NCBI GenBank assembly: GCA_964360965.1
Contig: CAYHYM010000002.1
Span: 1,311-65,310, forward strand
DNA length: 64,000 bases
Reading direction: 5' to 3'
Source: an uncultured Gammaproteobacteria bacterium
GTDB lineage: Bacteria; Patescibacteriota; Microgenomatia; Daviesbacterales; UBA10151
The first letter of the stretch is position 1; each line of letters begins with the position of its first letter. Positions 27,829 through 61,783 of this stretch are shown one piece after another. The notes below the pieces were generated by a model that had not been told where the DNA came from, did not search any database, and saw nothing but the letters and a program-made list of their open reading frames with translations. The translations under genes were made by a program, and so were the position numbers.

Positions 27829-28311
27829 TCAAAACTTTATAGTACTCGACTCGAAAATACTTACCCATTCGTCTATTCCAACCTTTTTAATATACTCATT
27901 TAGTAGATCAGCACAATTCTTTTTGCTTACCCAAATGCTATTTTGAAACCTTATAAACCCTAATTGTTTTAATTGATGTCTTAATAAATCTCTGGCCTTT
28001 CTCCTTTTTTCTGGAATATCCCACATTATTATTCTCCATTTCCCATCCCATTTTTCATCCTCCAGTTTCATCTTTGCCCAAAGTGCCTTAGTCTTTCCCT
28101 CGTCAGTAATTCTAGCAGCTAGCTCTTCATCACTTATTAGTTCTACAAATCCATTTTCTCTAAGCCTTTTAAAAACAAGTGCCAGCTCTGATTTTTTAAC
28201 TGGTCTCTCTAACAAAGGATTGTGTATAAAATCATCAAACTTAACATAACCATCCACTGTTTTTTCTAAGGTTAGGAGAACTATTTTAGCCAAGCTATTT
28301 TTCTTATTCAT
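27829..28311 (-). CDS. small PaaX-like regulator: winged-helix N-domain plus Cas2-like C-domain
   Basis: C-terminal WRIIMWDIPEKRRKARDLLRHQLKQLGFIRFQNSIWVS follows the Cas2/PaaX-C pattern (YDI...RRR...L...G.R.QNSVF). Flanked by identical 27-bp modules. Confidence 0.55.
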   Translation of the reverse strand: MNKKNSLAKIVLLTLEKTVDGYVKFDDFIHNPLLERPVKKSELALVFKRLRENGFVELISDEELAARITDEGKTKALWAKMKLEDEKWDGKWRIIMWDIPEKRRKARDLLRHQLKQLGFIRFQNSIWVSKKNCADLLNEYIKKVGIDEWVSIFESSTIKF

Positions 28312-28338: not shown

Positions 28339-28407
28339 TTATTGTCAATACAGCATAACCATTCCCTCTTGACATCTGATAGGATAAGTTATTTAATACA
28401 GCTAATT

Positions 28408-29094
28408 ATGCCAGCAGAAGTTCCATTTAGCTTTAAATATACCAATCTGAGTGATAAGTTTTATTTAGAATCAAGAGTGGCTAGTAATCAAAAAGATCTT
28501 GAAGAAACATTAGAGCACATCCACATTGCTAGATATATGGCAGTCCAAGAAACTCAAGATATAGTAAAGGCTACTATGGAAGGGTGGATGGAAAGAACCC
28601 CTAGATCTACCTGGTGGGAACAAAAACCTACTAAAATGACTGCCTCTGTCAATGTTGACCTCCAGCATTTAGCTATAGCGGGCTGGAAATATTCAGGTCG
28701 TGAAGGACTATCCTTCCCTCCAGGAATAGAACCCTACAAACCTTATCTTCTACAACTGACGTATAGAAAGTATCCACAATATGCTAATAGAGATGTGGAT
28801 GAGGCTGTAATCATTAGATGGGAGCAAGCTGCTGTTGAGAGAAGAGCAGATTTAGAATTACTTCGCCTTAGGAGTAGTCGAGCTGAATTTAGCTTTAGAA
28901 ATGATAATGGACCTTTCTGGATGCTACAAGAAACTGCCAAGTGGATTAATTTTTTTGCGGCTGAAGCTGCAGTTAGAAACCCCGTCTTAGTAGATGATCC
29001 TGAATATGGTGAGGATGATGAGGCAACAATTATTTTTGAGAATAGAGATGTCGCAGTAGAAACCGCAACCTCACTCCCCCAAGGTTCTGGCTGA
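28408..29094 (+). CDS. hypothetical protein (Trp/Arg-rich)
   Basis: ORF with ATG at 28408. No motif recognised. Converges on the PBP2 gene. Confidence 0.45.
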   Translation: MPAEVPFSFKYTNLSDKFYLESRVASNQKDLEETLEHIHIARYMAVQETQDIVKATMEGWMERTPRSTWWEQKPTKMTASVNVDLQHLAIAGWKYSGREGLSFPPGIEPYKPYLLQLTYRKYPQYANRDVDEAVIIRWEQAAVERRADLELLRLRSSRAEFSFRNDNGPFWMLQETAKWINFFAAEAAVRNPVLVDDPEYGEDDEATIIFENRDVAVETATSLPQGSG

Positions 29095-30879
29095 ATCTGT
29101 GGCAGTCTGATAAGTATCCTGTATCAGTTTACTTTTCTCTTCAGAAAAGAACCAGCGAAAAACTTCTTTAACAATAGGTGAGGCAACAGATGACCCTTCT
29201 CCTCCACCTTCTATCAGAACTGTCATGGCTATTTTGGGGTCATCTGAGGGAGCAAAAGATGTATACCAGGCATGAGTTCTGCCTTTGGGGTCACCATATT
29301 CTGAAGTACCAGTTTTGCCAGCCGTTTTAATGGGAAAGGTAAAAAAAGGCCAGGCAGTACCACCTGCTGATGCCACCTGCTCCAATCCCTCTTTGATTAC
29401 TTTGATATGCTCCGAAGAGGCAATATTTTCTGCCAAAATCTCGCTCTTAAACGCTTTTTGTATATTTCCATTTTCATCTGTGATCTTAAGCAGAAGCTGC
29501 GGCCTAAAAAGCTTGCCGTCTGCAGCGATAAATGAAGTGATCCCCAAAATTTGCAAAGGGGTGGTCAATATAAAACCCTGGCCAATTGATAAATGCAGCG
29601 TATCTCCGGGAAACCAGACTTCCCCTTTTTCTTTTTTCTTCCAAGTCTCATCCGGCACTAGTCCCATATCCTCCTGGGGCAAATCTATCTTAAGTTTCCC
29701 TCCCAAGTGCAGTTTTCTGGCCCATTCGGAAAGCATTTTTTCACCTATAGTTTGTCCCACTCTGTAAAAATAGGTATCGTTTGATCTTTTGAGGGCTTTT
29801 TTAATATCAACCGAACCCTCAAGTCTTCCATATTGGGTAAAATACCAGTTGGTAAAGCGAAAAGACCCCAAAAAAATTTCTCCCGTATCCTCAATTTGAG
29901 TCTGGGGAGTAATTTTGCCTGAGGACAGCGCTGCCAGGGCAGATACAATTTTAAAAGTTGAGCCCGGCGGATACTGACCTGCTATGGCCCTGTTTAAAAG
30001 CGGAGCATCTTTTCCTTGTAAAATTTGTTCAATTTCCCTTTCATCAGCCTGGCTGGTCAATACATTACCATCAAATGAAGGTAAAGAGGTAAGGGCTAAC
30101 ACCTGTCCGGATTTAGGGTCCATGGCCATGGCCGCGCCGCAGCAGCTGCCGCTCTTTTTAATGGCAGCAGAAAGTTCATCAAAAAGAATCTTCTGGATGT
30201 CAGCATCCAAAGTTAAAGTAATACTTTTGCCGGGGATTGGGGCAACCGCTCTTAGGGTTCTTATGATCCTGCCCAAATTGTCAACCTCAATCACTTCCCC
30301 ACCATCCACTCCCCGCAATATATTCTCATAGTAAGCCTCCTCTCCCAGCTGACCCACCCGATCGCCAATTTTATATCCGGAAAACTTAACATCTTTAAGC
30401 TGATTCTCTGATATTTCTCCCACATAACCTACGCTGTGAGCTGCCATCTCACCCAATGGATAATGCCTTTTTGAATCAATTTCCAAATTGGAAAAGTTGG
30501 GATCTTCACTCACTTCCATTTTCAAAGCCTGTTCCCGGGATAACAGGACGGCTTTTTTACTCTTGGGATCAACCAGCCTAAAAGCGGGGGAATTGGCTGC
30601 CAGCACCCTACCATTACGGTCAAAAATAACCCCCCGGGGAGCATGGATCACTTTTATGGCAATCCTGTTTCCTTCAGCCAATTGTCTGTTTTTTTCTCCC
30701 TGGGTAATTTGCAAATGGAAAAGGCGTAAAAAAAGAACAAAAAATAAACCTGCTGCAAATGTTAAAAACCAAGTCCTTTGCCAAAGGGTGGTATTTTTTT
30801 GTAATACTCCGGGCGTTTTAAAACCAGGCAAAAGCGCATCTTCCCATTCTTCAAATATTTTTTTTCCGGATTGGTCCAT
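29071..30879 (-). CDS. mrdA: penicillin-binding protein 2 (class B transpeptidase)
   Basis: STFK (SxxK), SIGQG (SxN-like) and KTGTSE (KTG) motifs. Lies downstream of mreCD. Confidence 0.85.
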   Translation of the reverse strand: MDQSGKKIFEEWEDALLPGFKTPGVLQKNTTLWQRTWFLTFAAGLFFVLFLRLFHLQITQGEKNRQLAEGNRIAIKVIHAPRGVIFDRNGRVLAANSPAFRLVDPKSKKAVLLSREQALKMEVSEDPNFSNLEIDSKRHYPLGEMAAHSVGYVGEISENQLKDVKFSGYKIGDRVGQLGEEAYYENILRGVDGGEVIEVDNLGRIIRTLRAVAPIPGKSITLTLDADIQKILFDELSAAIKKSGSCCGAAMAMDPKSGQVLALTSLPSFDGNVLTSQADEREIEQILQGKDAPLLNRAIAGQYPPGSTFKIVSALAALSSGKITPQTQIEDTGEIFLGSFRFTNWYFTQYGRLEGSVDIKKALKRSNDTYFYRVGQTIGEKMLSEWARKLHLGGKLKIDLPQEDMGLVPDETWKKKEKGEVWFPGDTLHLSIGQGFILTTPLQILGITSFIAADGKLFRPQLLLKITDENGNIQKAFKSEILAENIASSEHIKVIKEGLEQVASAGGTAWPFFTFPIKTAGKTGTSEYGDPKGRTHAWYTSFAPSDDPKIAMTVLIEGGGEGSSVASPIVKEVFRWFFSEEKSKLIQDTYQTATDSARTLGE

Positions 30880-30880
30880 G

Positions 30881-31300
30881 TTAGAATCTTTCTTCCCAAA
30901 ATTTGACTATGGCAAAAATAGGTATGGATAAAAAACCCTCTATTAATAATATAATGGGAAAAATATTGATGGTCTCACCCAAAAGCATTGAGGCCAGTAT
31001 TCTATCTACAGATACCCCTATCACTCCCAGGACCACCACAGTTAAAAAATGCGCTGATAAATGAGATCTGGACACCACTTGAGTCAGCTGCACCAGTACC
31101 AGATAGATGATACTTTGCACTCCCAGTTGGGTAAAATTTAAATGAGACATTAAAAGACCCATCGAAAATGCCAAATAGAGGTTTGATCTATCCACTCTCA
31201 CAAATGATCTTAAAATAAGGACCAGCAGCACTAAATTTACCCCTAAAATGGTATTTTGAAGCAAGGACAAAGCCACAAGAAACACAATTAAAGTTTTCAT
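30881..31300 (-). CDS. mreD: rod shape-determining protein MreD (polytopic membrane)
   Basis: Hydrophobic 139-aa protein between mreC and PBP2. Confidence 0.6.
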   Translation of the reverse strand: MKTLIVFLVALSLLQNTILGVNLVLLVLILRSFVRVDRSNLYLAFSMGLLMSHLNFTQLGVQSIIYLVLVQLTQVVSRSHLSAHFLTVVVLGVIGVSVDRILASMLLGETINIFPIILLIEGFLSIPIFAIVKFWEERF

Positions 31301-32085
31301 TCTATAATGATAAAAACAAGCTCTAAATCTCTGATATCAAAAATGGGGGCAAGGATGGCTTTTTTAAAAACTTCATTTTCCTTTTCCTCAACCCTGGTCA
31401 CTTTACCCAACACCAATCCCCTTGGTAAAAAATTCTCCAGCCCTTCCGTATAAACCAGGTCTCCCGCTTGTATTTTTTCTTCATGCAAAATTTTATCAAA
31501 CAGCATTTCCTGGCCAAATTGGCCTGTCACAACTCCTTTGGCTTTCCCCGAAAGCCCCTGGGAAAAAGCGGAAATTTTGGAATCCGGATCTGTCAGTAAT
31601 TTGACATTGGCCCCTTTTTCGGATGTCTCAGTTACCTGACCGATCAAATTATCTTTAAAAACAACAGCTTGATTTTTCTTCACCTTATCATTTGAACCTC
31701 TGTCTATTTTTAAATGCCTACTTAGTCCAATCGGTCTGGCAACAAGCAAATTAAAAATCTGTGGATTTAAAGACTGTTGTTGGGAAAGTTGCGCTTCTAC
31801 CTCTGCCAGTTTATTGCGAAGCTTAGCATTTTCTGATAACAGCTCCCCCAGCTGCTCTTTTAAGGCTTTGTTTTCCTGAGCAGACAAACGGGCGGCAAAA
31901 ATAAAATAAAACTGGCGCTCAAACCCCTGTTTGGTTTTATATAGACCAAAAGTTATGGGATTGGTTAAATAATAGAGAGCAATTTTAGGCCATTTGAGGA
32001 AATTGATGCTGTCTAAACCAAAGATCATCAGTGATATCAGTATCAGGATGAGGAATAATTGCAGGTTGGGAATAACTTTATCCAT
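31297..32085 (-). CDS. mreC: rod shape-determining protein MreC
   Basis: N-terminal TM, coiled coil (LKEQLGELLSENAKLRNKLAEVEAQL), then beta-rich domain. Confidence 0.75.
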   Translation of the reverse strand: MDKVIPNLQLFLILILISLMIFGLDSINFLKWPKIALYYLTNPITFGLYKTKQGFERQFYFIFAARLSAQENKALKEQLGELLSENAKLRNKLAEVEAQLSQQQSLNPQIFNLLVARPIGLSRHLKIDRGSNDKVKKNQAVVFKDNLIGQVTETSEKGANVKLLTDPDSKISAFSQGLSGKAKGVVTGQFGQEMLFDKILHEEKIQAGDLVYTEGLENFLPRGLVLGKVTRVEEKENEVFKKAILAPIFDIRDLELVFIIIE

Positions 32086-32647
32086 CTGGGAAAATATACC
32101 ACATTTTAAAGGTGAGGATAAAGAGAGGGAGTTTTGGGCTACTCATGATTCCACAGAATATGTTGATTGGTCTAAGCGGGGAAAAGATGATACTTTCGGA
32201 GAGCGAAAACTAACTGAGCCCCAGGATCCCACCTGTTGTCAGGTTTAGCCCAAAAGGCGCCCAACCAAAGCCCATTAGCATTGCGTTCCAGTTTGAACAC
32301 GTTCGGATTACCGTTACGGTCAGTAATGTATGATATGCCAACTACCTCTCACTGCTTACATAATTTATTTTAAAAGATGTATAGCTGTATTTTATTCGCG
32401 GATTAATCCGACAAGCACATCACACCAAGTAATTCTTTTTTAAGACAATATAAATCACTCCGAGGAAAATCGTAACCTCCCTCGTTCCCGATCTATAACT
32501 ATCAGAAGGATCTTGAAAAGCCTTAGCCTATCTTTTGTCAAGATTCAGAAGGGAATTGAAGGGTAAGTGAAGATTTTAATGATTGATCTTCTTTGAGATT
32601 ATTTGTCTTAGTTGACTGGGAACTATCCTTTAAAATAAACTTAAGGC

Positions 32648-32836
32648 ATGCTTACTAAGAAAGATAAAGAAGATATTAAGGATATTGTGGTTGATGTCTT
32701 AGAAGATGTGGTTATGCCATCATTTGATCTTGTGGCAACAAAAACAGATTTGAAAAAAGTTGAAACCAGATTGGAAACTGTTGAAACCAGCGAAGAACGC
32801 ATTAAAAATCTAGAATCACAAAGAGCGCTCACCTAA
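32648..32836 (+). CDS. small coiled-coil hypothetical protein (XhlA-like pattern)
   Basis: 62-aa ORF with realistic composition (DLKKVETRLETVETSEERIKNLES). Weak call. Confidence 0.3.
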   Translation: MLTKKDKEDIKDIVVDVLEDVVMPSFDLVATKTDLKKVETRLETVETSEERIKNLESQRALT

Positions 32837-33044
32837 GGGAAAATATACCAGAAAACTACCATAACTATTCAGTATTTCCCGGAAACTGTCATCCCTGCGA
32901 AGGCAGGGATCCAATTAACTATTTCTGCTAATTAGATTCCCGCATATGCGGGAGTGACACTGGGAAGAACTGAACTCATACAAACTACCCTATTGACAAA
33001 GGTGTAAGTAAAGTATTATTTTAAGAAACAACTGCTCCAAGATA

Positions 33045-33932
33045 ATGGCTGAGAGAATATACAACGAACTCTTTGATCAACAGCACGCTCTTCGAAAACA
33101 TACCTGTGTTGGCTTAGATACTAATGACGAAGTTGTTCAACAAATGGTGGAGGGTGGCCTTGAACTAGAAGGAGATACTCCAGGTGAGCTAGTAGTTGCT
33201 TATAACACCATGGTGCTCGAGGAAACTGCCGATATAGCTGGAATATATAAACCTAATTTACAATTTTACTTAGGGTTAGGATATGAGGCGATAACTACCT
33301 TAAAACAAACCTTCCAAAAAGCTCACTCTATTGCTCCCGAAGTTCCCATAGTTTTAGATGCTAAATTTCAGGATATTGATTCTACTAATAACGGTTCAAT
33401 GAAACTTCTAAAATTCCTAGAAGCAGATGGGGCAACTTTGCATGTTTATTTAGGTAGCCAGGCTAGCAGCCCATTTCTAGATGTAAAAAATATGGGATTC
33501 TTTGCTTTAGATAGAACTTCTAATCCAGGAGCTGGTGAGTTTCAAGATTTATGGGTAGCTACTAATCAGGGAGAGCCAGCAACAAAAAAACTATATGAAG
33601 TGGCGGCTGAGATTATTCATGAGAAATGGAACCGTAATGGCAACTGCGGTTTGGTAGCTGGAGCCACTTATCCAGATGAAGCTGGAATAATTAGAAATAT
33701 TGTTGGATCAGATCTGATGGTGCTATTCCCGGGTGTAGGCACTCAAGGTGGTACAGCACCTGAAATAGTTCTCCAGGCACTTAGAAGAGGTCAAAAGGGA
33801 GTTGTCAATGCTTCCCGATCTACCATATTTGCTGCAAGGTTGGAAGGGGAAACCCAAAGACAGGCCATTAGAAGAGCTGCTTTTAAACTTCACGATGAAA
33901 TATTTGATACTCAAGAGCAATTAGCAGCATAA
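33045..33932 (+). CDS. pyrF: orotidine 5'-phosphate decarboxylase (long type-2 form)
   Basis: VGLDT, the IVLDAKFQDIDST D-x-K-x-x-D-I-x-x-T motif, and C-terminal VLFPGVGTQGG. Confidence 0.8.
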   Translation: MAERIYNELFDQQHALRKHTCVGLDTNDEVVQQMVEGGLELEGDTPGELVVAYNTMVLEETADIAGIYKPNLQFYLGLGYEAITTLKQTFQKAHSIAPEVPIVLDAKFQDIDSTNNGSMKLLKFLEADGATLHVYLGSQASSPFLDVKNMGFFALDRTSNPGAGEFQDLWVATNQGEPATKKLYEVAAEIIHEKWNRNGNCGLVAGATYPDEAGIIRNIVGSDLMVLFPGVGTQGGTAPEIVLQALRRGQKGVVNASRSTIFAARLEGETQRQAIRRAAFKLHDEIFDTQEQLAA

Positions 33933-33933
33933 G

Positions 33934-34587
33934 ATGGCAGCTGAAGCAGAAAGAACAAGTCAAATCCTTTTGGACATTGGGGCTGTGACCCTTAATTTAG
34001 AAAATCCTTACACTTATGTATCTGCAATCAGAAGCCCTGTTTATACTGATTGCCGTCTCTTAATGGGTTATCCTCAGGAAAGAAGAACCATTGCTCACTT
34101 ACTTGCTGAAAAGATAGCTCAAACAGGAAATTTTGATGTTATTGCTGGCACAGCCACAGCTGGTATACCCCATGCTGCTTGGGTATCAGAAAGATTAGGC
34201 AAACCCATGGTTTATGTTAGAAGTGAAGCTAAAGGTCATGGCAAACAAAACCAGATTGAGGGTCCAACCATATCTGATGGTCAAAAAGTAGCTGTGGTAG
34301 AAGATTTAATATCTACAGGTAGTAGCTCTATCGCAACCGTTGAAGCTCTCAGAGAAGCCGGAGCAACAGTTGATTTTATCTTTGCCATTATGACTTATGG
34401 GATGGCTAAAGCTGATGAAAATTTTGCCAAGACTAGGGTTAGACCAATTGTTTTAGCCACCTTTGAAGATCTAGTCACAAAAGCAGCAGCCATAGGACAA
34501 ATTAATGATAGCCAAAGAGAGGTTATTTTAGACTGGACTAAAGATACTGCTGGTTGGTGGAATAGAGTTCAAGGTCAAACTACCTAA
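33934..34587 (+). CDS. pyrE: orotate phosphoribosyltransferase
   Basis: PRPP-binding motif VAVVEDLISTGSS. OPRTase-like N-terminus. Confidence 0.85.
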   Translation: MAAEAERTSQILLDIGAVTLNLENPYTYVSAIRSPVYTDCRLLMGYPQERRTIAHLLAEKIAQTGNFDVIAGTATAGIPHAAWVSERLGKPMVYVRSEAKGHGKQNQIEGPTISDGQKVAVVEDLISTGSSSIATVEALREAGATVDFIFAIMTYGMAKADENFAKTRVRPIVLATFEDLVTKAAAIGQINDSQREVILDWTKDTAGWWNRVQGQTT

Positions 34588-35387
34588 AGTAGGTCTGTTA
34601 AAGGGGTGGCCATATTCCATAAAGTTTCAAAAATTGTTTTTTGCATATTAGCAAAATTTTCACCTTCTATTTCAAACCCATTAATCTCTCGATCATGCAA
34701 ATATAGTTCAGCAAAGATATTGTCATAGATAAAAGTTTCTCCTTTAATCCAAACATGCTGTTGGTCTATCCCTCTGATAGAAGTGGGGAGTGTTCTGCCA
34801 ATTGATGTACCAGCATATTTTCTGACTGACTCTAAAAGATGTTCTCTGGGGTTAACTAACACTCTCTCTTTAATCTGTCTTTGTTTTGATTCACTAACAA
34901 AGCTTTTATAAAAGTTAATCCCCACATAACTACCCCTACCCCAAGCACTATAAACTAAAACTGTCTCCTTGGTACTTAAAGTATTCCATAGAAGCTGTCT
35001 TGCTCCTGAAACCCCTTTATAGTAACGGACAGTGGCTGGTTGAGGCCTTTTATTTCCGGGTAAGGATTCAATCACACTTTCCAAATGATCTAGTTTATCC
35101 ATCTGGGTTTGCAGCTCAATCAATTTTTCCCTTAAAGTGTGCTTCATAGAACTTAGGGGGTAAGGATTAATCCTGACAAAGTTGTCTTCTACAATTCTTT
35201 CCACCAATCCCAGTTGTAGGAGAATTTTTAAACTATCTGCCACAGTGGTTCTGGGGATACTTGCTAAGTTAGCAATTTCTTGAATTCTTAAAGAGCCGTG
35301 TTGGATTAAAGTTAGATATATTAAAACTTGATTTTCAGATAAGCCAAATCTTTTTAGCTCGTTTTTGACCTCTTTTAAATTTGCCAT
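34584..35387 (-). CDS. TrmB-family (archaeal-type sugar-regulator-like) transcriptional regulator
   Basis: N-terminal wHTH LSENQVLIYLTLIQHGSLRIQEIANLASIPRTTVADSLKILLQLGLVE plus a C-terminal ligand-domain-like region. Divergent from the DHODH-like gene. Confidence 0.6.
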   Translation of the reverse strand: MANLKEVKNELKRFGLSENQVLIYLTLIQHGSLRIQEIANLASIPRTTVADSLKILLQLGLVERIVEDNFVRINPYPLSSMKHTLREKLIELQTQMDKLDHLESVIESLPGNKRPQPATVRYYKGVSGARQLLWNTLSTKETVLVYSAWGRGSYVGINFYKSFVSESKQRQIKERVLVNPREHLLESVRKYAGTSIGRTLPTSIRGIDQQHVWIKGETFIYDNIFAELYLHDREINGFEIEGENFANMQKTIFETLWNMATPLTDLL

Positions 35388-35488
35388 TTTTGTTTAATAA
35401 TAATGGCAGGTTACAAAGTTAGAAAAATGACGACAAATTCCGTCATCAGATTTACTAACTTGGTGGATATTAACATAATTAGATTAAC

Positions 35489-36652
35489 ATGACTAGAGAA
35501 GTTATAGGGCTACCATCAGCAGAATCTTTAAGACACCCCAACCAACCACCACTTTTATATCAAATGGATAGATCATGGATAGCTAATGTTTATGCAGGAC
35601 CACAATGGTTAGGTGATTACCCTCCTTTACCAAAAAATAAAGATTATAGCTTTTTGGGTAAAAGAATAATCTCTCCGATAGAGTGTGCTGCAGGTCCAGC
35701 AGGAGGCAGAAAGTGGACCGCCTTTGCTCTTAGAATGGGGTTTGGCATAGTTAACCAAAAAACAATGAGAACAATTGCTTGGGAAGCCAATCAGCTTCCT
35801 AATATCACTTTGGTAGAAGAAACAGATTTGGTTGATGAGCAGAATATGCCAGATCATTTACTAGGAAGTTTTGATTTAAAAGATGCGGGTAGATATCTTA
35901 ATATGGGTAACTCTTTTGGTAATCCATCATTTCCCGTAATAGACTGGACTAATGATTTTAGACAACAATTAAAGGATGTCGGAGATGGTCAAATACTAGC
36001 CATGAGTGTCACCCCATCTATTAGAGATAATCCACTCTGCAAAGAGTTGTTTGGTAGGGACTCGGAAGTTGATTTAGCTATTGAAGCTGCTAATGATCTA
36101 GTTCATGGTGCAGTGGCTGCAGCTGTAGCAGGAGCAACTATGGAAGAGATGAATGTTTCTTGCAATAACGTAGTACAACATCCTCAAGAAGGACAGATGT
36201 ATATGAACGCCCCCCTAGTCGGTTACGCAGTCAGATCATTTAAAGAGATATCTCCTGGAGTAGATATAGGTATCAAATGCGGGCCATTTAGAAGCGCTGA
36301 CCAGACGACCAGAACTATTGATGCTTGTCAGGGAGAATTAAATTTTATCTCTCTAATTAATACCTTTCCAGCTAGAGTAGTAAATCCTGAAGGTGTTGCT
36401 GTTATGCCAGGGAGAGAACAGATTGGTTTTTCCGGTCCAGCTATTCAAGATGTGGCATTAAGAAACGTCGAATGGGCTGCTAAAGCTAGGGATAGTTTAG
36501 GTATATCTCTTGGTATTAAGGGTGGTGGAGGTGTTAATACTCCGGAAGATGTGGATAGATTTATAAACGCTGGAGCTGATGTAGTTTTTGTTGCAAATCG
36601 CTTTTTACGAGATCCCCTTTTCGCTTATGAATATTACCTCTACAAACACTGA
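35489..36652 (+). CDS. dihydroorotate dehydrogenase family 1-like protein (Cys active site)
   Basis: NVSCNNV matches the class-1 DHODH NxSCPN active-site motif. C-terminal IKGGGGVNTPEDVDRFINAGADVVFVANRFL matches the FMN-binding GxGGI...AGA tail. Confidence 0.6.
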   Translation: MTREVIGLPSAESLRHPNQPPLLYQMDRSWIANVYAGPQWLGDYPPLPKNKDYSFLGKRIISPIECAAGPAGGRKWTAFALRMGFGIVNQKTMRTIAWEANQLPNITLVEETDLVDEQNMPDHLLGSFDLKDAGRYLNMGNSFGNPSFPVIDWTNDFRQQLKDVGDGQILAMSVTPSIRDNPLCKELFGRDSEVDLAIEAANDLVHGAVAAAVAGATMEEMNVSCNNVVQHPQEGQMYMNAPLVGYAVRSFKEISPGVDIGIKCGPFRSADQTTRTIDACQGELNFISLINTFPARVVNPEGVAVMPGREQIGFSGPAIQDVALRNVEWAAKARDSLGISLGIKGGGGVNTPEDVDRFINAGADVVFVANRFLRDPLFAYEYYLYKH

Positions 36653-36687
36653 CCTTCTTTGAATATTTTTGTCTCAATTGAAAACAG

Positions 36688-36984
36688 TTATCTAGGTATA
36701 AAATGTAGCTCTACTTTCATTCCTATAGCATTGGCTAATCTTTTAATTAAAGATAGAGATGGGCTGGCATTAGCATTCTCTAACCTAGAAATAACAGCCT
36801 GTCCTGTTCCCATTCTTCTAGCTAACTCCTCTTGACTAATTTTTTTCTTAACTCTGGCATCAATCATAGCTTGGATGATAGTAAATTCTGGCTGCAAATC
36901 TTCATAAGCCTTTTTAGCTCCTTTAGTAGATAAGAGTAGTTTTTTGAGTTCCTCAACCGTATAATATTTAGGTGTTTTTTTCAT
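36688..36984 (-). CDS. HTH XRE-family antitoxin (HigA-like)
   Basis: HTH_XRE core ISQEELARRMGTGQAVISRLEN. Overlaps the upstream toxin gene by 4 nt. Confidence 0.7.
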   Translation of the reverse strand: MKKTPKYYTVEELKKLLLSTKGAKKAYEDLQPEFTIIQAMIDARVKKKISQEELARRMGTGQAVISRLENANASPSLSLIKRLANAIGMKVELHFIPR

Positions 36985-37283
36985 AATTGATACTCCTTAA
37001 GACGCTTCCTAGCTGTTTCTATTTCCTTTTTAGGGATCTTCTGACTCTTCTTTTTAAAACCATTTACTACAACCATTGTTGTACCTACTTTACCTATGAG
37101 CAATCTAATATCACCTGGCCTTAACTCCCATAAATTATTTTCTATCTTTTTTAAATATTGTCCTGGTAAATTAAATCCATTTTTCTCAAACAACTCAATA
37201 TACCCTTGGGCCCGACCTTGATCTGCTTCAACACAAGAATCTAGAAACTTTTTGACTCGTCCATCAGTGATTACTGTCAACAT
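36981..37283 (-). CDS. RelE/ParE-superfamily toxin (HigB/Gp49-like)
   Basis: LWELRPGDIRLLIGKVGTTMVVVNGFKKKSQKIP matches Gp49/HigB-like toxins. Toxin lies upstream of the antitoxin. Confidence 0.65.
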   Translation of the reverse strand: MLTVITDGRVKKFLDSCVEADQGRAQGYIELFEKNGFNLPGQYLKKIENNLWELRPGDIRLLIGKVGTTMVVVNGFKKKSQKIPKKEIETARKRLKEYQL

Positions 37284-37339
37284 AATTTTATGATAAATTT
37301 GTCATAATGTCAATCCTTCGACTATGCTCAGGACAAGTT

Positions 37340-37591
37340 TTATCTTAATCCTCTGGTCACTATATCTACTAACTCAGCGATACCCTCAATTACATAATCA
37401 GGCTTAGCTAGAGCTATATCTTCTCCTCCAAAACCATAAGTTACTCCTACCGTTTTTACTCCAGCTGCTCTTTCTAAAACTGCAAAGCCATTGGCAGAAA
37501 GTGCATATTCATATGCCTGAAAAATAAACTCTCTAGTATCGAGCAAAGTTCCATCAACATCCAGTAGAACTGCTACTTCTCCTTCTATCAT
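37340..37591 (-). pseudogene. HAD-superfamily phosphatase remnant (motif I and C-terminal motifs retained, core missing)
   Basis: LLDVDGTLLD is HAD motif I. GVTYGFGGED...KPDYVIEGIAEL is the HAD C-terminus. Only about 85 aa remain. Confidence 0.5.
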
Positions 37592-37720
37592 CTTAACCCT
37601 CCTGTTACCCCTTCGACCCATTCGATTAACACTCAGGTCTTCGACTCCGAGGTCGCTCAGACTCGAGGAGGTCGTACTGAGTGGAATCGAAGTACGGCTT
37701 CGCTCAGGGTCGTGGTCGGT

Positions 37721-38776
37721 TTAACGCAAACCTCCCGTGACTTTAACTTTAGACAGTAAATCCAGATTATTTAACACTTCCCCACAGCCCCTAACCACAG
37801 TAGTTAGCGGATCATCTACCACGACAACCGACAGCTTAACCTCCTGAGTAATTTTTTTATCCAAACCAGCAAGTAATGCCCCTCCACCGGCCAAATATAT
37901 ACCATGGTCTAAAATATCAGACATTAGTTCCGGAGGTGTTTCTTCCAAAATCTCCTGAATCCCGGAAACTATTTGATTGACTGTGGGAGCAATAGCTTCC
38001 CTGACCTCATCAGAGGTAATTTTTAAACTTTTTGGCAGTCCTGTTGATAAATCTCTTCCTCTTACCACAGCCTCTTTATTCCCCATGTCATAGGCTGAAC
38101 CTATGTCAATTTTTATCTCTTCAGCTGACCTTTGTCCTATCAAAAGAGAGTAGCGCGTTCTTAAATAATTGATGATATCCTCATCCATCTCATCACCACC
38201 AATCCTCAAAGATTTATTTATCACCATTCCTCCCAAAGATATCACCGCAATCTCTGTGGTTCCCCCCCCAATATCTGTAATCATCACCCCTTGCGGCTCC
38301 TCTATACTCAGTTTGGAGCCAATGGCAGCTGCCATTGGCTCCTCTATTAAAAAAGCCTGCCTGGCTCCAGCTGACAAACAAGCATCCTGTACTGCCCTTC
38401 TTTCCACCTCTGTCACCCCGGATGGAATGCCCACCACTACCCTTGGTTTGGGAATTTTTGGCAGCCCCCATTTGGTGGTGGGGGGGTTTTTATGAACCTT
38501 TTGGATAAAATAGCGCAGCATGGCCTCAGTGGTATCAAAATCGGAAATAACCCCGTCCCGCAAAGGTCTGACTGCTTCAATGGCAGCAGGGGTTCTGCCC
38601 AGCATTCTTTTGGCCTCAGAGCCAACAGCCAAAATTTGTCTGGTTTTTCTATGCAGCGCCACCACACTTGGCTCCCGGATGAGGATTCCTTTGCCTTTAA
38701 CATAAACTAAGGTATTAACAGTGCCTAAATCAATACCTATATCATGGGAGAAAATTTGCCAGATGCGATCTAACAT
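37721..38776 (-). CDS. mreB: rod shape-determining protein MreB
   Basis: Actin-like ATPase start IGIDLGTVNTLVYVKGKGIL. DIGGGTTEIAV phosphate-2 motif. Confidence 0.9.
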   Translation of the reverse strand: MLDRIWQIFSHDIGIDLGTVNTLVYVKGKGILIREPSVVALHRKTRQILAVGSEAKRMLGRTPAAIEAVRPLRDGVISDFDTTEAMLRYFIQKVHKNPPTTKWGLPKIPKPRVVVGIPSGVTEVERRAVQDACLSAGARQAFLIEEPMAAAIGSKLSIEEPQGVMITDIGGGTTEIAVISLGGMVINKSLRIGGDEMDEDIINYLRTRYSLLIGQRSAEEIKIDIGSAYDMGNKEAVVRGRDLSTGLPKSLKITSDEVREAIAPTVNQIVSGIQEILEETPPELMSDILDHGIYLAGGGALLAGLDKKITQEVKLSVVVVDDPLTTVVRGCGEVLNNLDLLSKVKVTGGLR

Positions 38777-61637: not shown

Positions 61638-61783
61638 TGCAACGAAACCCTGAGCATAGTCGTACTTCGAGTTCCCTCAGTATGACCCTGAGTGCTAATC
61701 GAATGGGTCGAAGGGTGGAATTACAGTGAATGAAATTGAGGGATTGACACCCATTGTTTTCTTATGATATACAATGAGACAGA

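What the first reader, a model, noticed from the sequence alone, without database searches (positions are those of the whole stretch)
32086..37720. 5.6-kb island splitting mreB from mreCD-PBP2, carrying pyrF, pyrE and a class-1 DHODH-like gene under a TrmB-type regulator
mreB (37721-38776) and mreC-mreD-mrdA (29071-32085) are normally contiguous. Here they are separated by a segment with opposite-strand genes. The segment encodes OMP decarboxylase, OPRTase, a DHODH family-1-like enzyme (NVSCNN active-site motif) divergently paired with an archaeal-type TrmB regulator, a HigB/HigA-like TA pair, a HAD-phosphatase remnant, palindromic elements at both ends, and a 560-bp non-coding stretch. Only the last three steps of UMP synthesis are present in the window (no pyrB/pyrC), which suggests salvage of orotate or dihydroorotate. 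The TA pair and the gene remnant point to horizontal acquisition. A palindrome tgacgacaaattccgtcatca in the divergent promoter region (35410-35435) is a candidate TrmB operator.
Basis: partly seen in the sequence, partly recalled or inferred. Interest (0 to 1): 0.6.

Follow-up and report, generated by a model that had tools for sequence, protein, structure and literature searches.

The report
Conserved regulator–operator switch on pyrD
The segment between mreC and mreB is not a foreign island but this bacterial lineage's usual pyrimidine gene cluster, and it carries a previously undescribed, widely conserved TrmB-type regulator, 21-bp operator and promoter unit that controls dihydroorotate dehydrogenase in ultra-small (CPR/Patescibacteria) bacteria.

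Summary
The horizontal-acquisition reading fails its own refutation test. Eleven other independent loci from Daviesbacteria-like Patescibacteria carry pyr genes between mreC and mreB. There are no end repeats, integrase, tRNA or GC shift. The HAD gene is a resident gene that decayed in place.

The TrmB-like protein has a TrmBL2-like architecture. It is divergently paired with a DHODH-family gene in 21 of 23 distinct loci, although the DHODH belongs to at least four non-orthologous types, including a bona fide class 2 enzyme. Every locus has the same layout: a 21-bp palindrome (TGACGACGa-N3-tCGTCGTCA), a 2-nt gap, TTTACN, 17 nt, then CATAxT. The window's site is 35428-35448.

The DHODH-like protein belongs to a sizeable DHODH clade that no curated NCBIfam model reaches. 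Synteny and gene fusions with pyrC, pyrE and pyrF link it to the pyrimidine pathway.

No pyrB or pyrC lies in the 64 kb. Whether the genome lacks them cannot be told.

The parts
29071..32085 (-). mrdA (PBP2), mreD and mreC: the left flank of the locus
   Evidence: NCBIfam and Pfam. The same flank is seen in 11 related loci.
32093..32185 (+). Truncated CopG-type antitoxin, a toxin-antitoxin gene remnant without a start codon of its own
   Evidence: PF12441, E 1.4e-9, 39 bits against a cutoff of 28; profile positions 2-32 of 79.
32648..32836 (+). 62-aa coiled-coil ORF. It may be a shortened relative of the 95-114-aa small ORF that precedes pyrD in L004, L009 and L123.
   Evidence: Only the N-terminal 14-21 residues are similar, MLTK(K/Q)D..., E about 0.01-0.02. 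L009, L004 and L123 are clearly homologous to one another. Tentative.
32868..32975 (+). Strongly structured intergenic element, a multibranch hairpin of unknown role
   Evidence: MFE -48.7 kcal/mol, z -5.93, 0 of 200 shuffles fold as well. No Rfam match. Not repeated in the window.
32993..33022 (+). Promoter-like site upstream of pyrF: TTGACA, 18 nt, TATTTT
   Evidence: A consensus match only. No TrmB-type operator is nearby.
33045..33932 (+). pyrF, type-2 OMP decarboxylase
   Evidence: TIGR02127, 144.4 bits against 110.6. 36-43% identical to pyrF of related loci. Best database hits reach 48% and the named ones are all CPR.
33934..34587 (+). pyrE, orotate phosphoribosyltransferase
   Evidence: TIGR00336, 130 bits against 106.8. 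43-51% identical to pyrE of L012, L013 and L027. A different type from the 240-aa pyrE of L004 and L010.
34584..35387 (-). TrmBL2-like transcription factor: winged HTH, long helix and PLD-like domain. It is the predicted local regulator of pyrD and of itself.
   Evidence: PF01978. AF2 pLDDT 91.4. Foldseek best matches TrmBL2 5bpd at E 2e-13 and TrmB 3qph. At least 85 full-length homologues, up to 78% identical. Divergent from a DHODH-family gene in 21 of 23 loci.
35428..35448 (.). 21-bp palindromic operator TGACGACAAATTCCGTCATCA
   Evidence: The only PWM hit of 8 bits or more in the window, at 26.4 bits. Unique by regex, with 0.05 expected. Homologous sites lie at the same position in all related loci.
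35451..35479 (+). Predicted pyrD promoter: -35 TTTACT, 17 nt, -10 CATAAT. The ATG lies 9 nt after the -10, so the mRNA is nearly leaderless (inferred).
   Evidence: The same layout (palindrome, 2 nt, TTTACN, then a -10-like hexamer after 17 nt in 18 of 20 loci, read as CATAxT in most) is seen in all 20 loci examined.
35489..36652 (+). pyrD: a divergent class-1-like dihydroorotate dehydrogenase of the 'A1' clade, with Cys225 in the motif NVSCNN
   Evidence: PF01180. AF2 pLDDT 91.9. Foldseek places it in the DHODH/DPD fold at E about 1e-15. The catalytic and FMN motifs are invariant and align to 1ep1. Synteny with pyrB, pyrC, pyrE and pyrF. Fusions to pyrC, pyrE and pyrF domains.
36688..37283 (-). 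HigB-like (Gp49) toxin 36981-37283 and HTH_3 antitoxin 36688-36984. They overlap by 4 nt. The pair is specific to this genome.
   Evidence: PF05973 at E 5.6e-16 and PF01381 at E 1.7e-13. Absent at this position in L013 and L021. Other toxin-antitoxin types occupy the slot in L092 (MazE-Fic) and L123 (RelE-like by my reading).
37340..37621 (-). HAD phosphatase remnant. About 125 residues have been lost from the middle, in frame.
   Evidence: NCBIfam PRK13288 covers residues 51-89 of the remnant against profile positions 172-211 of 215, and the HAD_2 model covers the N terminus. Full-length 198-207-aa HAD genes lie at the same position in L013 and L021.
37606..37700 (-). Hairpin-rich element upstream of the HAD remnant. 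A shorter second copy lies at 61660-61715(+).
37721..38776 (-). mreB: the right flank of the locus
   Evidence: PF06723, 460 bits. 67-78% identical to MreB of the related loci.

Best explanation
The segment is the pyrimidine gene cluster that Daviesbacteria-like Patescibacteria normally keep between mreC and mreB. In this genome the cluster has been remodelled.

- pyrC and pyrB are not at the locus.
- The slot between pyrE and pyrD holds a TrmBL2-like transcription factor, transcribed divergently from pyrD.
- A HigB/HigA pair has been inserted between pyrD and the resident HAD gene.
- The HAD gene has lost its middle.
- A CopG antitoxin remnant lies next to mreC.

The functional core is a conserved regulatory unit. 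A dimer of the TrmB-like protein binds a 21-bp palindrome (35428-35448). The palindrome ends 2 nt upstream of a sub-optimal -35 box of the pyrD promoter (TTTACT, 17 nt, CATAAT). It also lies in the upstream region of the regulator's own gene.

Shown by comparison: the regulator, operator and promoter keep a fixed geometry and stay linked to a DHODH-family gene across many Patescibacteria. This holds even where the DHODH has been replaced by a non-orthologous type.

Inferred from geometry only:
- The protein most likely activates pyrD. The site is centred near -48 and abuts a weak -35 without covering it.
- It most likely represses its own gene.
- It most likely responds to a pyrimidine-pathway metabolite bound by its PLD-like domain.

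The 387-aa DHODH-like protein is the pathway's PyrD. It belongs to a deep class-1-like DHODH clade with a Cys base. Its electron acceptor is unknown, and curated models do not recognise the clade.
For: Ancestral locus:
- pyr genes lie between mreC and mreB in L004, L008, L009, L010, L012, L013, L021, L092/96, L097/98 and L123.
- A full-length HAD gene lies next to mreB in L013 and L021.
- No end repeats and no GC shift. No tRNA near the segment.

Regulator module:
- 85 full-length homologues.
- A divergent DHODH-family neighbour in 19 of 23 distinct loci, and one gene further along in 2 more.
- Partner types differ. L092's is a class 2 DHODH that passes NF003652 (312.9 against 267) and TIGR01036 (280.7 against 200). 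L094 and L097 are class-1A-like. L095 and L099 are A1-related. L101, L110 and L111 are another type.
- The regulators of the window and L092 are 78% identical, but their DHODHs share no significant similarity.
- The operator PWM carries 24.1 bits. In 1.63 Mb of fetched DNA, every hit of 20 bits or more is the single site upstream of a TrmB-like gene, and nothing else reaches 18 bits.
- The gap between palindrome and TTTACN is 2 nt in 20 of 20 loci, and the spacer is 17 nt in 18 of 20. L120-L122 agree.
- Loci that lack the regulator (L004-L013) also lack the operator.
- The fold matches TrmBL2 and TrmB.

PyrD assignment:
- Invariant K91, N141-S-F-G, E220, N222, C225, N227, K263, N291, G313/G316 and G347-G348.
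- Motif-by-motif alignment to L. lactis DHODH B.
- DHODH fold.
- One operon of pyrB, pyrF, pyrE, pyrC and pyrD in L010.
- pyr neighbours in most Patescibacteria and Acidobacteriota loci.
- Fusions with DHOase, OPRTase and OMP decarboxylase domains.
Against: - No experiment supports any of this. Binding, the sign of regulation and the ligand are all inferred.
- The PWM specificity test is partly circular, because the PWM was built from the sites it recovers.
- Two regulator loci (L113, and L112/117) lack a DHODH neighbour.
- In several loci the regulator and DHODH stand alone, far from other pyr genes. A role of the DHODH outside UMP synthesis is therefore not excluded.
- The window's PyrD is the most divergent member of its subgroup, at most 45% identical to any other. 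Its active-site loop has Asn where the family has Pro (NVSCNN against NLACPN).
- It scores far below every NCBIfam DHODH cutoff: 49 bits against 269.
- There is no operator upstream of pyrF-pyrE, so the regulator cannot explain control of the whole cluster.
Confidence: 0.75

Rival explanations
1. The segment is a recently acquired genomic island that split mreB from mreCD. It brought in a three-step orotate or dihydroorotate salvage route under an archaeal regulator.
For: Toxin-antitoxin genes and two gene remnants are present. pyrB and pyrC are absent from the 64-kb window. [quoted passage not shown]
Against: The arrangement is conserved in 11 other independent loci of the lineage. The HAD remnant derives from a resident gene. 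There are no terminal repeats, integrase, tRNA or GC anomaly. All close homologues of pyrD, pyrF and the regulator come from CPR bacteria. The salvage sub-claim stays open on its own, at roughly 0.3.
Confidence: 0.05
2. The module is the same but the sign is opposite. The TrmB-like protein is a repressor of pyrD, for example with a pyrimidine end product as co-repressor, or relieved by substrate. It acts by blocking polymerase contacts at or upstream of the -35 box.
For: The palindrome ends only 2 nt from the -35 hexamer in every locus, so steric occlusion is possible. From my own knowledge, archaeal TrmB proteins mostly act as repressors. The same site must repress the divergent regulator gene.
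Against: The site never overlaps the -35 or -10 hexamers. The -35 (TTTACN) and -10 (CATAxT) are consistently sub-optimal, although consensus-like TTGACA boxes occur elsewhere in the same segment. That pattern is typical of activator-dependent promoters.
Confidence: 0.3
3. The DHODH-like protein is not a dihydroorotate dehydrogenase. It is another flavin TIM-barrel enzyme, for example dihydropyrimidine-dehydrogenase-like or dihydrouridine-synthase-like.
For: It falls below all curated DHODH cutoffs. Foldseek scores DPD about as well as DHODH. Some family members, in Planctomycetota and Proteobacteria, have no pyr neighbours.
Against: Operon membership with pyrB, pyrC, pyrE and pyrF. Fusions to pyrC, pyrE and pyrF domains. 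The same slot and the same regulator/operator are occupied by a bona fide class 2 DHODH in L092. The DHODH motifs are conserved, including the Cys base.
Confidence: 0.07
4. The palindrome is merely an intrinsic terminator or a chance hairpin.
For: The terminator scan flags 35448-35428(-) as a stem followed by a T-rich tail.
Against: It lies between two divergent start codons, so there is no upstream gene for it to terminate. The arms are conserved in sequence while the centre varies and no T-run follows in other loci, including GC-rich ones. Conservation of sequence rather than of pairing points to a protein-binding site.
Confidence: 0.03

Closest known systems
TrmB family regulators of Thermococcales and haloarchaea (TrmB, TrmBL1, TrmBL2)
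   Same: An N-terminal TrmB winged HTH (PF01978), a long dimerisation helix and a PLD-like domain. The best structural match is TrmBL2, 260 aa, E 2e-13. The DNA site is palindromic and of similar size to those I recall for the archaeal regulators.
   Different: This is a bacterial (Patescibacteria) subfamily. Like TrmBL2 it lacks the C-terminal sugar-binding domain. Unlike TrmBL2, which the PDB entry describes as a chromatin protein, it has one highly specific site per locus. Its target is pyrD rather than sugar transport or glycolysis genes. It works with a bacterial sigma-70-type promoter.
Known bacterial pyrimidine regulators (PyrR attenuation protein; ArgR, PepA, RutR and PurR at carAB). 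From my own knowledge and from the abstracts of PMC6245113 and PMC5839063 listed.
   Same: They control de novo pyrimidine synthesis genes.
   Different: The protein family is different. The regulator binds DNA at a promoter rather than attenuating through RNA. The predicted regulon is a single gene, pyrD, plus the regulator itself. No site precedes pyrF-pyrE.
Dihydroorotate dehydrogenase classes 1A (L. lactis PyrDA, 1dor), 1B (PyrDB, 1ep1) and 2 (E. coli, 1f76)
   Same: The FMN TIM-barrel fold, the ExNxSC(P)N loop with a Cys base as in class 1, and the motifs containing the conserved Lys, Asn and Gly residues.
   Different: Only 15-19% identical to any solved structure. The fold is about equally distant from classes 1A and 2 and from DPD. 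There is a non-hydrophobic N-terminal extension of about 55 residues with its own conserved motif (YDxxKxWExN...GP). No pyrK partner is at the locus. No curated DHODH model is reached. The electron acceptor is unknown.
The canonical mreB-mreC-mreD(-mrdA) operon
   Same: All four genes are present and conserved, on the same strand.
   Different: In this lineage mreB is separated from mreCD-mrdA by the pyr cluster, which has variable content and orientation. This is a stable lineage trait, not a recent disruption.
Type II HigB/HigA toxin-antitoxin modules
   Same: A Gp49/HigB-like toxin lies upstream of an HTH_3 antitoxin, with a 4-nt overlap.
   Different: Nothing unusual. It is one of at least three unrelated toxin-antitoxin types found at the same pyrD-mreB junction in relatives.

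Membership tests
Dihydroorotate dehydrogenase (PyrD) | FMN-binding TIM-barrel of the DHODH/DPD fold | tested here: met
   AF2 pLDDT 91.9. Foldseek matches DHODH classes 1A and 2 and DPD at E about 1e-15, with target-normalised TM 0.70-0.77 for DHODH chains.
Dihydroorotate dehydrogenase (PyrD) | Active-site loop with the catalytic base (Cys in class 1, Ser in class 2), and conserved Asn and Lys for orotate and FMN | tested here: met
   E220-x-N222-x-S-C225-x-N227, K263, N291, GxxG and GG are invariant in 23 family members. They align to ELNISCPNV, VKL, INT, GGLSG and GMGG of 1ep1. The window has Asn226 where the family has Pro.
Dihydroorotate dehydrogenase (PyrD) | Reaches curated family thresholds | tested here: inconclusive
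   The Pfam PF01180 gathering score is met, 39.8 against 27. Every NCBIfam DHODH model is missed: best 49.1 bits against 269. The same holds for relatives.
Dihydroorotate dehydrogenase (PyrD) | Genomic linkage to the other UMP-synthesis genes | tested here: met
   Operons and clusters with pyrB, pyrC, pyrE and pyrF. Domain fusions with pyrC, pyrE and pyrF.
Dihydroorotate dehydrogenase (PyrD) | Oxidises dihydroorotate to orotate; identity of the electron acceptor | not testable with these tools
   Needs an enzyme assay or complementation.
DHODH class 1B | A PyrK (FAD/2Fe-2S) partner encoded alongside | tested here: not met
   No such gene appears in the window segment or in any of the A1-type loci read.
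DHODH class 2 | Ser catalytic base and a hydrophobic N-terminal quinone/membrane domain | tested here: not met
   The base is Cys225. The N-terminal 55 residues are polar and mostly coil in the model.
TrmB family transcription factor | N-terminal TrmB-type winged helix-turn-helix | tested here: met
   PF01978, 48.9 bits against 25.6, residues 11-68.
TrmB family transcription factor | Coiled-coil helix plus PLD-like effector/dimerisation domain | tested here: met
   The AF2 model has a helix at 79-108 and an alpha/beta domain at 119-259. Foldseek matches TrmBL2 and TrmB over the full length and PLD-fold proteins for the C-terminal domain.
TrmB family transcription factor | C-terminal sugar-binding domain (TrmB proper, TrmBL1) | tested here: not met
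   The protein ends at residue 267, as TrmBL2 does (260 aa). No PF11495 match.
TrmB family transcription factor | Sequence-specific binding to a palindromic operator | tested here: inconclusive
   The comparative evidence is strong, but binding itself was not and cannot be tested here.
Horizontally acquired genomic island | Absent from related genomes at the same site | tested here: not met
   Present in 11 other independent loci of the lineage.
Horizontally acquired genomic island | Mobility signatures: integrase or transposase, flanking repeats, tRNA target, deviant composition | tested here: not met
   None of the ORFs is a recombinase. No shared end repeat longer than 10 nt, and GC is 38.7% against 39.4%. 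The tRNAs are 9 kb or more away.
Type II toxin-antitoxin (HigBA-like) | Small RelE-superfamily toxin upstream of, and overlapping, an HTH antitoxin | tested here: met
   PF05973 at E 5.6e-16 and PF01381 at E 1.7e-13, with a 4-nt overlap at 36981-36984.

The most novel reading that the evidence does not exclude
The TrmBL2-like protein is a dedicated, ligand-responsive regulator of dihydroorotate dehydrogenase throughout Patescibacteria. That would make it the first transcription factor-operator-promoter unit defined for this radiation. It has stayed in place while the enzyme beneath it was repeatedly swapped between non-orthologous DHODH classes. One of those classes, the 'A1' clade present here and currently annotated as 'hypothetical protein', would be a further DHODH class with a new electron acceptor. 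Its non-recognition would mean that pyrimidine auxotrophy has been over-called in CPR genome reconstructions.
Probability: 0.35. Interest if true: 0.72.

Novelty: new variant of a known kind. Interest (0 to 1): 0.55.

Why it matters
- It corrects an attractive but wrong reading. The break in mreBCD is an old lineage trait, not a recent insertion.
- It yields a precise, testable cis-regulatory model (protein, 21-bp site, promoter, target) for a group of bacteria in which, as far as my searches and knowledge go, no such regulator-operator unit has been described and which cannot be grown alone.
- The same regulator and operator sit over at least four unrelated DHODH types. This gives a clean natural example of non-orthologous enzyme displacement beneath a conserved control element.
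- It supplies independent evidence that the unrecognised A1 clade does the DHODH job.
- That clade comprises 638 clusters at E of 1e-30 or better. Its closest named relative is labelled 'hypothetical protein' by NCBI. Pathway reconstructions may therefore miss pyrD and overstate nucleotide auxotrophy in CPR bacteria and some Acidobacteriota.

Tried and rejected
- **Mobile-element reading.** I looked for inverted or direct repeats between the two ends, tRNAs and other RNAs and a compositional shift. Nothing was found.
- **pyrB or pyrC remnants.** I searched the 'non-coding' DNA and the whole window with relatives' proteins and found none.
- **Wider regulon.** A PWM scan of the 64 kb for further operator copies, especially upstream of pyrF, found none at 8 bits or more.
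- **Palindrome as terminator.** Rejected on position and on its pattern of conservation.
- **Known RNA element in 32000-37800.** No Rfam match even at E of 1 or less.
- **The 62-aa ORF as a member of the small-ORF family upstream of pyrD.** Only the first 14-21 residues match, so this stays tentative.
- **The 250-aa ORF at 28342-29094.** It has no family match and is not similar to the 253-aa ORF in the same slot of L123.
- **Literature.** Searches for a described CPR DHODH clade or a TrmB-type pyrimidine regulator found nothing relevant.
- **AFDB fold search.** The library was not available.

Full report
**1. What is in the sequence**

| Feature | Coordinates | Strand |
|---|---|---|
| mrdA (PBP2) | 29071-30879 | - |
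| mreD | 30881-31300 | - |
| mreC | 31297-32085 | - |
| 62-aa ORF | 32648-32836 | + |
| pyrF (type 2) | 33045-33932 | + |
| pyrE | 33934-34587 | + |
| TrmB-type HTH protein, 267 aa | 34584-35387 | - |
| DHODH-like protein, 387 aa | 35489-36652 | + |
| HTH_3 antitoxin | 36688-36984 | - |
| Gp49/HigB-like toxin | 36981-37283 | - |
| HAD fragment, 93 aa | 37340-37621 | - |
| mreB | 37721-38776 | - |

Relatives' pyrB and pyrC proteins find nothing anywhere in the 64 kb, not even fragments.

Three details need correcting.
- The palindrome lies at 35428-35448.
- The 560-bp 'non-coding' stretch begins with a truncated CopG-type antitoxin at 32093-32185 (PF12441, E 1.4e-9).
- The hairpin-rich elements near the two ends (32868-32975, z -5.9; about 37630-37700) are unrelated to each other. 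The ends share no repeat longer than 10 nt.

**2. It is not an acquired island**

The DHODH-like protein has few close relatives: 25 by word-seeded search, the best 45% identical, one of them named Candidatus Daviesbacteria. I read the DNA around these relatives and around relatives in species-representative genomes.

Every Daviesbacteria-like locus has pyr genes wedged between mreC and mreB. The usual frame is DprA, PBP2, MreD, MreC, then the pyr genes, then (HAD) and MreB, followed by a Wzy/TPR gene. This holds for L004, L008, L009, L010, L012, L013, L021 and L123, and also for L092/96 and L097/98, which were found through the regulator.

MreC is 47-65% identical across these loci, so the arrangement is old. 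Gene content and orientation vary.

| Locus | Arrangement |
|---|---|
| L010 | pyrB-pyrF-pyrE-pyrC-pyrD in one operon |
| L013 | pyrF-pyrE-pyrC-pyrD |
| L012 | pyrE-pyrB-pyrC-pyrD, no pyrF |
| L008 | two PRT-like genes and pyrD only |

Further points agree:
- GC content is ordinary, 38.7% against 39.4%.
- No recombinase or tRNA is nearby.
- The closest homologues of pyrF (at most 48% identical; named ones are Uhr-, Wildermuth- and Berkelbacteria), of pyrE (43-51% to L012, L013 and L027), of pyrD and of the regulator are all from CPR bacteria.
- The HAD 'remnant' is what is left of a gene that is full length (198-207 aa) at the same position in L013 and L021. The window copy keeps about 30 N-terminal and about 40 C-terminal residues.

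Toxin-antitoxin pairs are the only clearly mobile items, and the pyrD-mreB junction is a hot spot for them. The window has HigBA there, L092 has MazE-Fic and L123 has a pair that I read as RelE-like.

**3. The regulator, operator and promoter module**

The 267-aa protein has at least 85 full-length homologues, up to 78% identical. Those that carry a name are from Parcubacteria or the Patescibacteria group.

Its model (pLDDT 91.4) has three parts: a winged HTH, a 30-residue helix and a PLD-fold domain. It matches archaeal TrmBL2 best (E 2e-13) and TrmB next. Like TrmBL2 it lacks the sugar-binding end domain.

I read 23 distinct loci with enough upstream DNA. These came from six contig look-ups and a metagenome scan.
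- In 19 the gene is transcribed divergently from a DHODH-family gene.
- In 2 the DHODH is the second gene of the divergent operon (L106, L121).
- In 2 there is none (L113; L112/117, which has a pyrE-like gene instead).

The partners are not orthologous.
- L092's passes the curated cutoffs for quinone-dependent class 2 DHODH (312.9 against 267; 280.7 against 200).
- L094 and L097 are class-1A-like.
- L095 and L099 are distant relatives of the window's type.
- L101, L110 and L111 are yet another type.

L092 has the same mre-embedded layout as the window: mreC, then pyrF and pyrE, then the regulator, then pyrD, then a toxin-antitoxin pair, then mreB. Its regulator is 78% identical to the window's, yet the two DHODHs share no significant similarity.

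Between regulator and DHODH every locus carries the same 21-bp palindrome, consensus TGACGACGa-N3-tCGTCGTCA, with 24.1 bits of information.
- In 1.63 Mb of fetched DNA, each hit of 20 bits or more is the one site upstream of a regulator gene. Nothing else reaches 18 bits.
- Loci without the regulator have no site.
- In the window the only hit of 8 bits or more is 35428-35448, at 26.4 bits.

The geometry is rigid. The palindrome is followed by exactly 2 nt and then TTTACN in 20 of 20 loci. A 17-nt spacer follows in 18 of 20, and then a hexamer that reads CATA(A/C)T in most loci. L120-L122 agree.

In the window this reads TTTACT, 17 nt, CATAAT (35451-35479). The pyrD ATG lies 9 nt further on.

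The palindrome therefore spans about -58 to -38 of the predicted pyrD promoter. It lies 2-60 nt (usually about 10 nt) upstream of the regulator's start codon.

The conserved arms, variable centre and absence of a T-run in other loci argue for a protein-binding site rather than a terminator.

**4. How it most likely works**

Shown by comparison: the regulator, its operator and a DHODH promoter form one conserved unit that persists through repeated replacement of the enzyme gene.

Inferred from geometry:
- A dimer binds the palindrome.
- The site abuts but never covers a consistently sub-optimal -35/-10 pair, whereas consensus-like TTGACA boxes occur elsewhere in the segment. I therefore favour activation of pyrD.
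- The same site sits in the promoter or 5' region of the divergent regulator gene, which implies autorepression.
- The ligand is unknown. A pathway intermediate or end product bound by the PLD-like domain is the natural guess.

The opposite sign, repression of pyrD, remains a serious alternative at about 0.3.

pyrF-pyrE have their own promoter-like site and no operator. The regulator therefore appears to control only the redox step.

**5. The DHODH-like protein**

The model (pLDDT 91.9) has the DHODH/DPD TIM-barrel fold. It is about equally distant from class 1A, class 2 and DPD, at 15-19% identity.

The family alignment keeps the Lys, the NSFG motif, E-x-N-x-S-C-x-N with Cys as the base, Lys, IN, GxxG and GG. 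The last five align to the corresponding motifs of L. lactis DHODH B.

The window protein has NVSCNN where the family has NLACPN. One other regulator-linked DHODH (L106) also has SCNN.

A profile search finds 638 clusters at E of 1e-30 or better. Relatives occur in Saccharibacteria; in Levy-, Nomura- and Moranbacteria; and in Acidobacteriota, Verrucomicrobia, Planctomycetota and others.
- In most Patescibacteria and Acidobacteriota loci the gene is adjacent to pyrE, pyrF, pyrC or pyrB.
- Natural fusions join the domain to OPRTase, OMP decarboxylase and DHOase domains.

No NCBIfam DHODH model reaches its cutoff for any member tested. NCBI labels the closest named relative 'hypothetical protein'.

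I file it as a DHODH by fold, motifs and context. It is not a member of class 1A, 1B or 2. There is no pyrK gene, no Ser base and no hydrophobic N terminus.

**6. Comparison with what is known, and novelty**

The protein kinds are known: TrmB-family factor, DHODH, HigBA, HAD and the mre genes.

I could not find three things described anywhere in the searchable literature:
- a TrmB-family regulator dedicated to pyrD;
- its operator;
- the A1 DHODH clade.

I therefore rate the finding a new variant of a known kind. The 'island' itself is ordinary lineage synteny.

**7. Open points**

- Whether the genome truly lacks pyrB and pyrC is not decidable from 64 kb. I put a truncated, salvage-type pathway at about 0.3. 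The three mre-embedded loci that carry the regulator (window, L092, L097) all lack pyrC at the locus, whereas most regulator-free loci of this kind keep it (all except L008). This is suggestive but not conclusive.
- The sign of regulation, the ligand and the DHODH's electron acceptor all need experiments.

Noticed in passing
L092:734-1843 (also L093 and L096): A bona fide quinone-dependent class 2 DHODH, passing NF003652 and TIGR01036 cutoffs, sits in a Daviesbacteria-like CPR genome. As far as I know, such bacteria are generally thought to lack quinones and respiratory chains. What accepts its electrons is unclear.
   Followed up: partly
proteins P0116, P0117, P0136: Some A1-type DHODH domains are fused to an MGS-like domain, the domain I recall from the C-terminal end of CarB, and to a class II aminoacyl-tRNA-synthetase-like (tRNA-synt_2) domain. 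P0136 also carries a PRTase domain. These multi-enzyme architectures are unexplained.
   Followed up: no
window 32868-32975: A 108-nt multibranch structured element lies between the 62-aa ORF and the pyrF promoter-like site. MFE is -48.7 kcal/mol, z -5.9, and 0 of 200 shuffles fold as well. There is no Rfam match. One 20-nt hairpin arm recurs at the cut end of L013 (18654-18673). Its function is unknown.
   Followed up: partly
window 37606-37700(-) and 61660-61715(+): A repeated element (CGTACTTCGA.TTCC.CTCAGTA.GACC ... CTGAGTG.TAATCGAATGGGTCGAAGGG) occurs upstream of the HAD remnant. It occurs again, without its inner hairpin, in an intergenic region 24 kb away. It includes the ATG annotated as the start of the HAD remnant, so that start codon may not be real.
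   Followed up: partly
window 32093-32185(+): A truncated CopG-type antitoxin (PF12441) lies immediately beside the mreC start. A 58-residue open stretch on the opposite strand (32175-32348) has no family match. This looks like the wreck of an earlier toxin-antitoxin insertion.
   Followed up: partly
pyrD-mreB junction: window 36688-37283; L092:84-724; L123:8356-8882: Three unrelated toxin-antitoxin types occupy the same junction in three related genomes: HigBA, MazE-Fic, and a pair I read as RelE-like with its antitoxin. This is a local hot spot for toxin-antitoxin turnover.
   Followed up: partly
L004:9619-9963, L009:9669-9956, L123:6879-7166; window 32648-32836: A small coiled-coil protein (95-114 aa, MLTKQDL...LPPL) is conserved immediately upstream of the A1-type pyrD in loci that lack the regulator. 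The window's 62-aa ORF shares only its first 14-21 residues and now sits upstream of pyrF.
   Followed up: partly
pyrE genes: window 33934-34587; L004:7809-8543; L009:7514-8173; L092:2782-3294: At least four mutually very dissimilar OPRTase-like types (217, 244, 219 and 170 aa) occupy the pyrE slot in related loci. pyrE, like pyrD, therefore appears to undergo replacement within the cluster.
   Followed up: partly
window 28342-29094(+): A 250-aa ORF between the PaaX_M/Cas2-like gene and mrdA has no Pfam or NCBIfam match. A different, unrelated 253-aa ORF occupies the same slot in L123.
   Followed up: partly
window 27829-28311(-): A 160-aa protein with a PaaX central (Cas2-like) domain, PF20803 at E 1.3e-24, lies next to dprA. 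Genes with the same domain are found at the same place in L008, L009 and L092.
   Followed up: no
loci L014, L015, L017-L020, L022, L055 and others (Planctomycetota, Nitrospira, Proteobacteria): Full-length relatives of the A1-type DHODH in these phyla show no pyr genes within 10 kb. In those lineages the family may be a paralogue with another role.
   Followed up: no
protein P0007 (MBI2011612.1): NCBI annotates the closest named A1-type DHODH, which sits inside a pyrC-pyrE-pyrF cluster, as 'hypothetical protein'. This annotation gap could make CPR genomes look as if they lack pyrD.
   Followed up: partly
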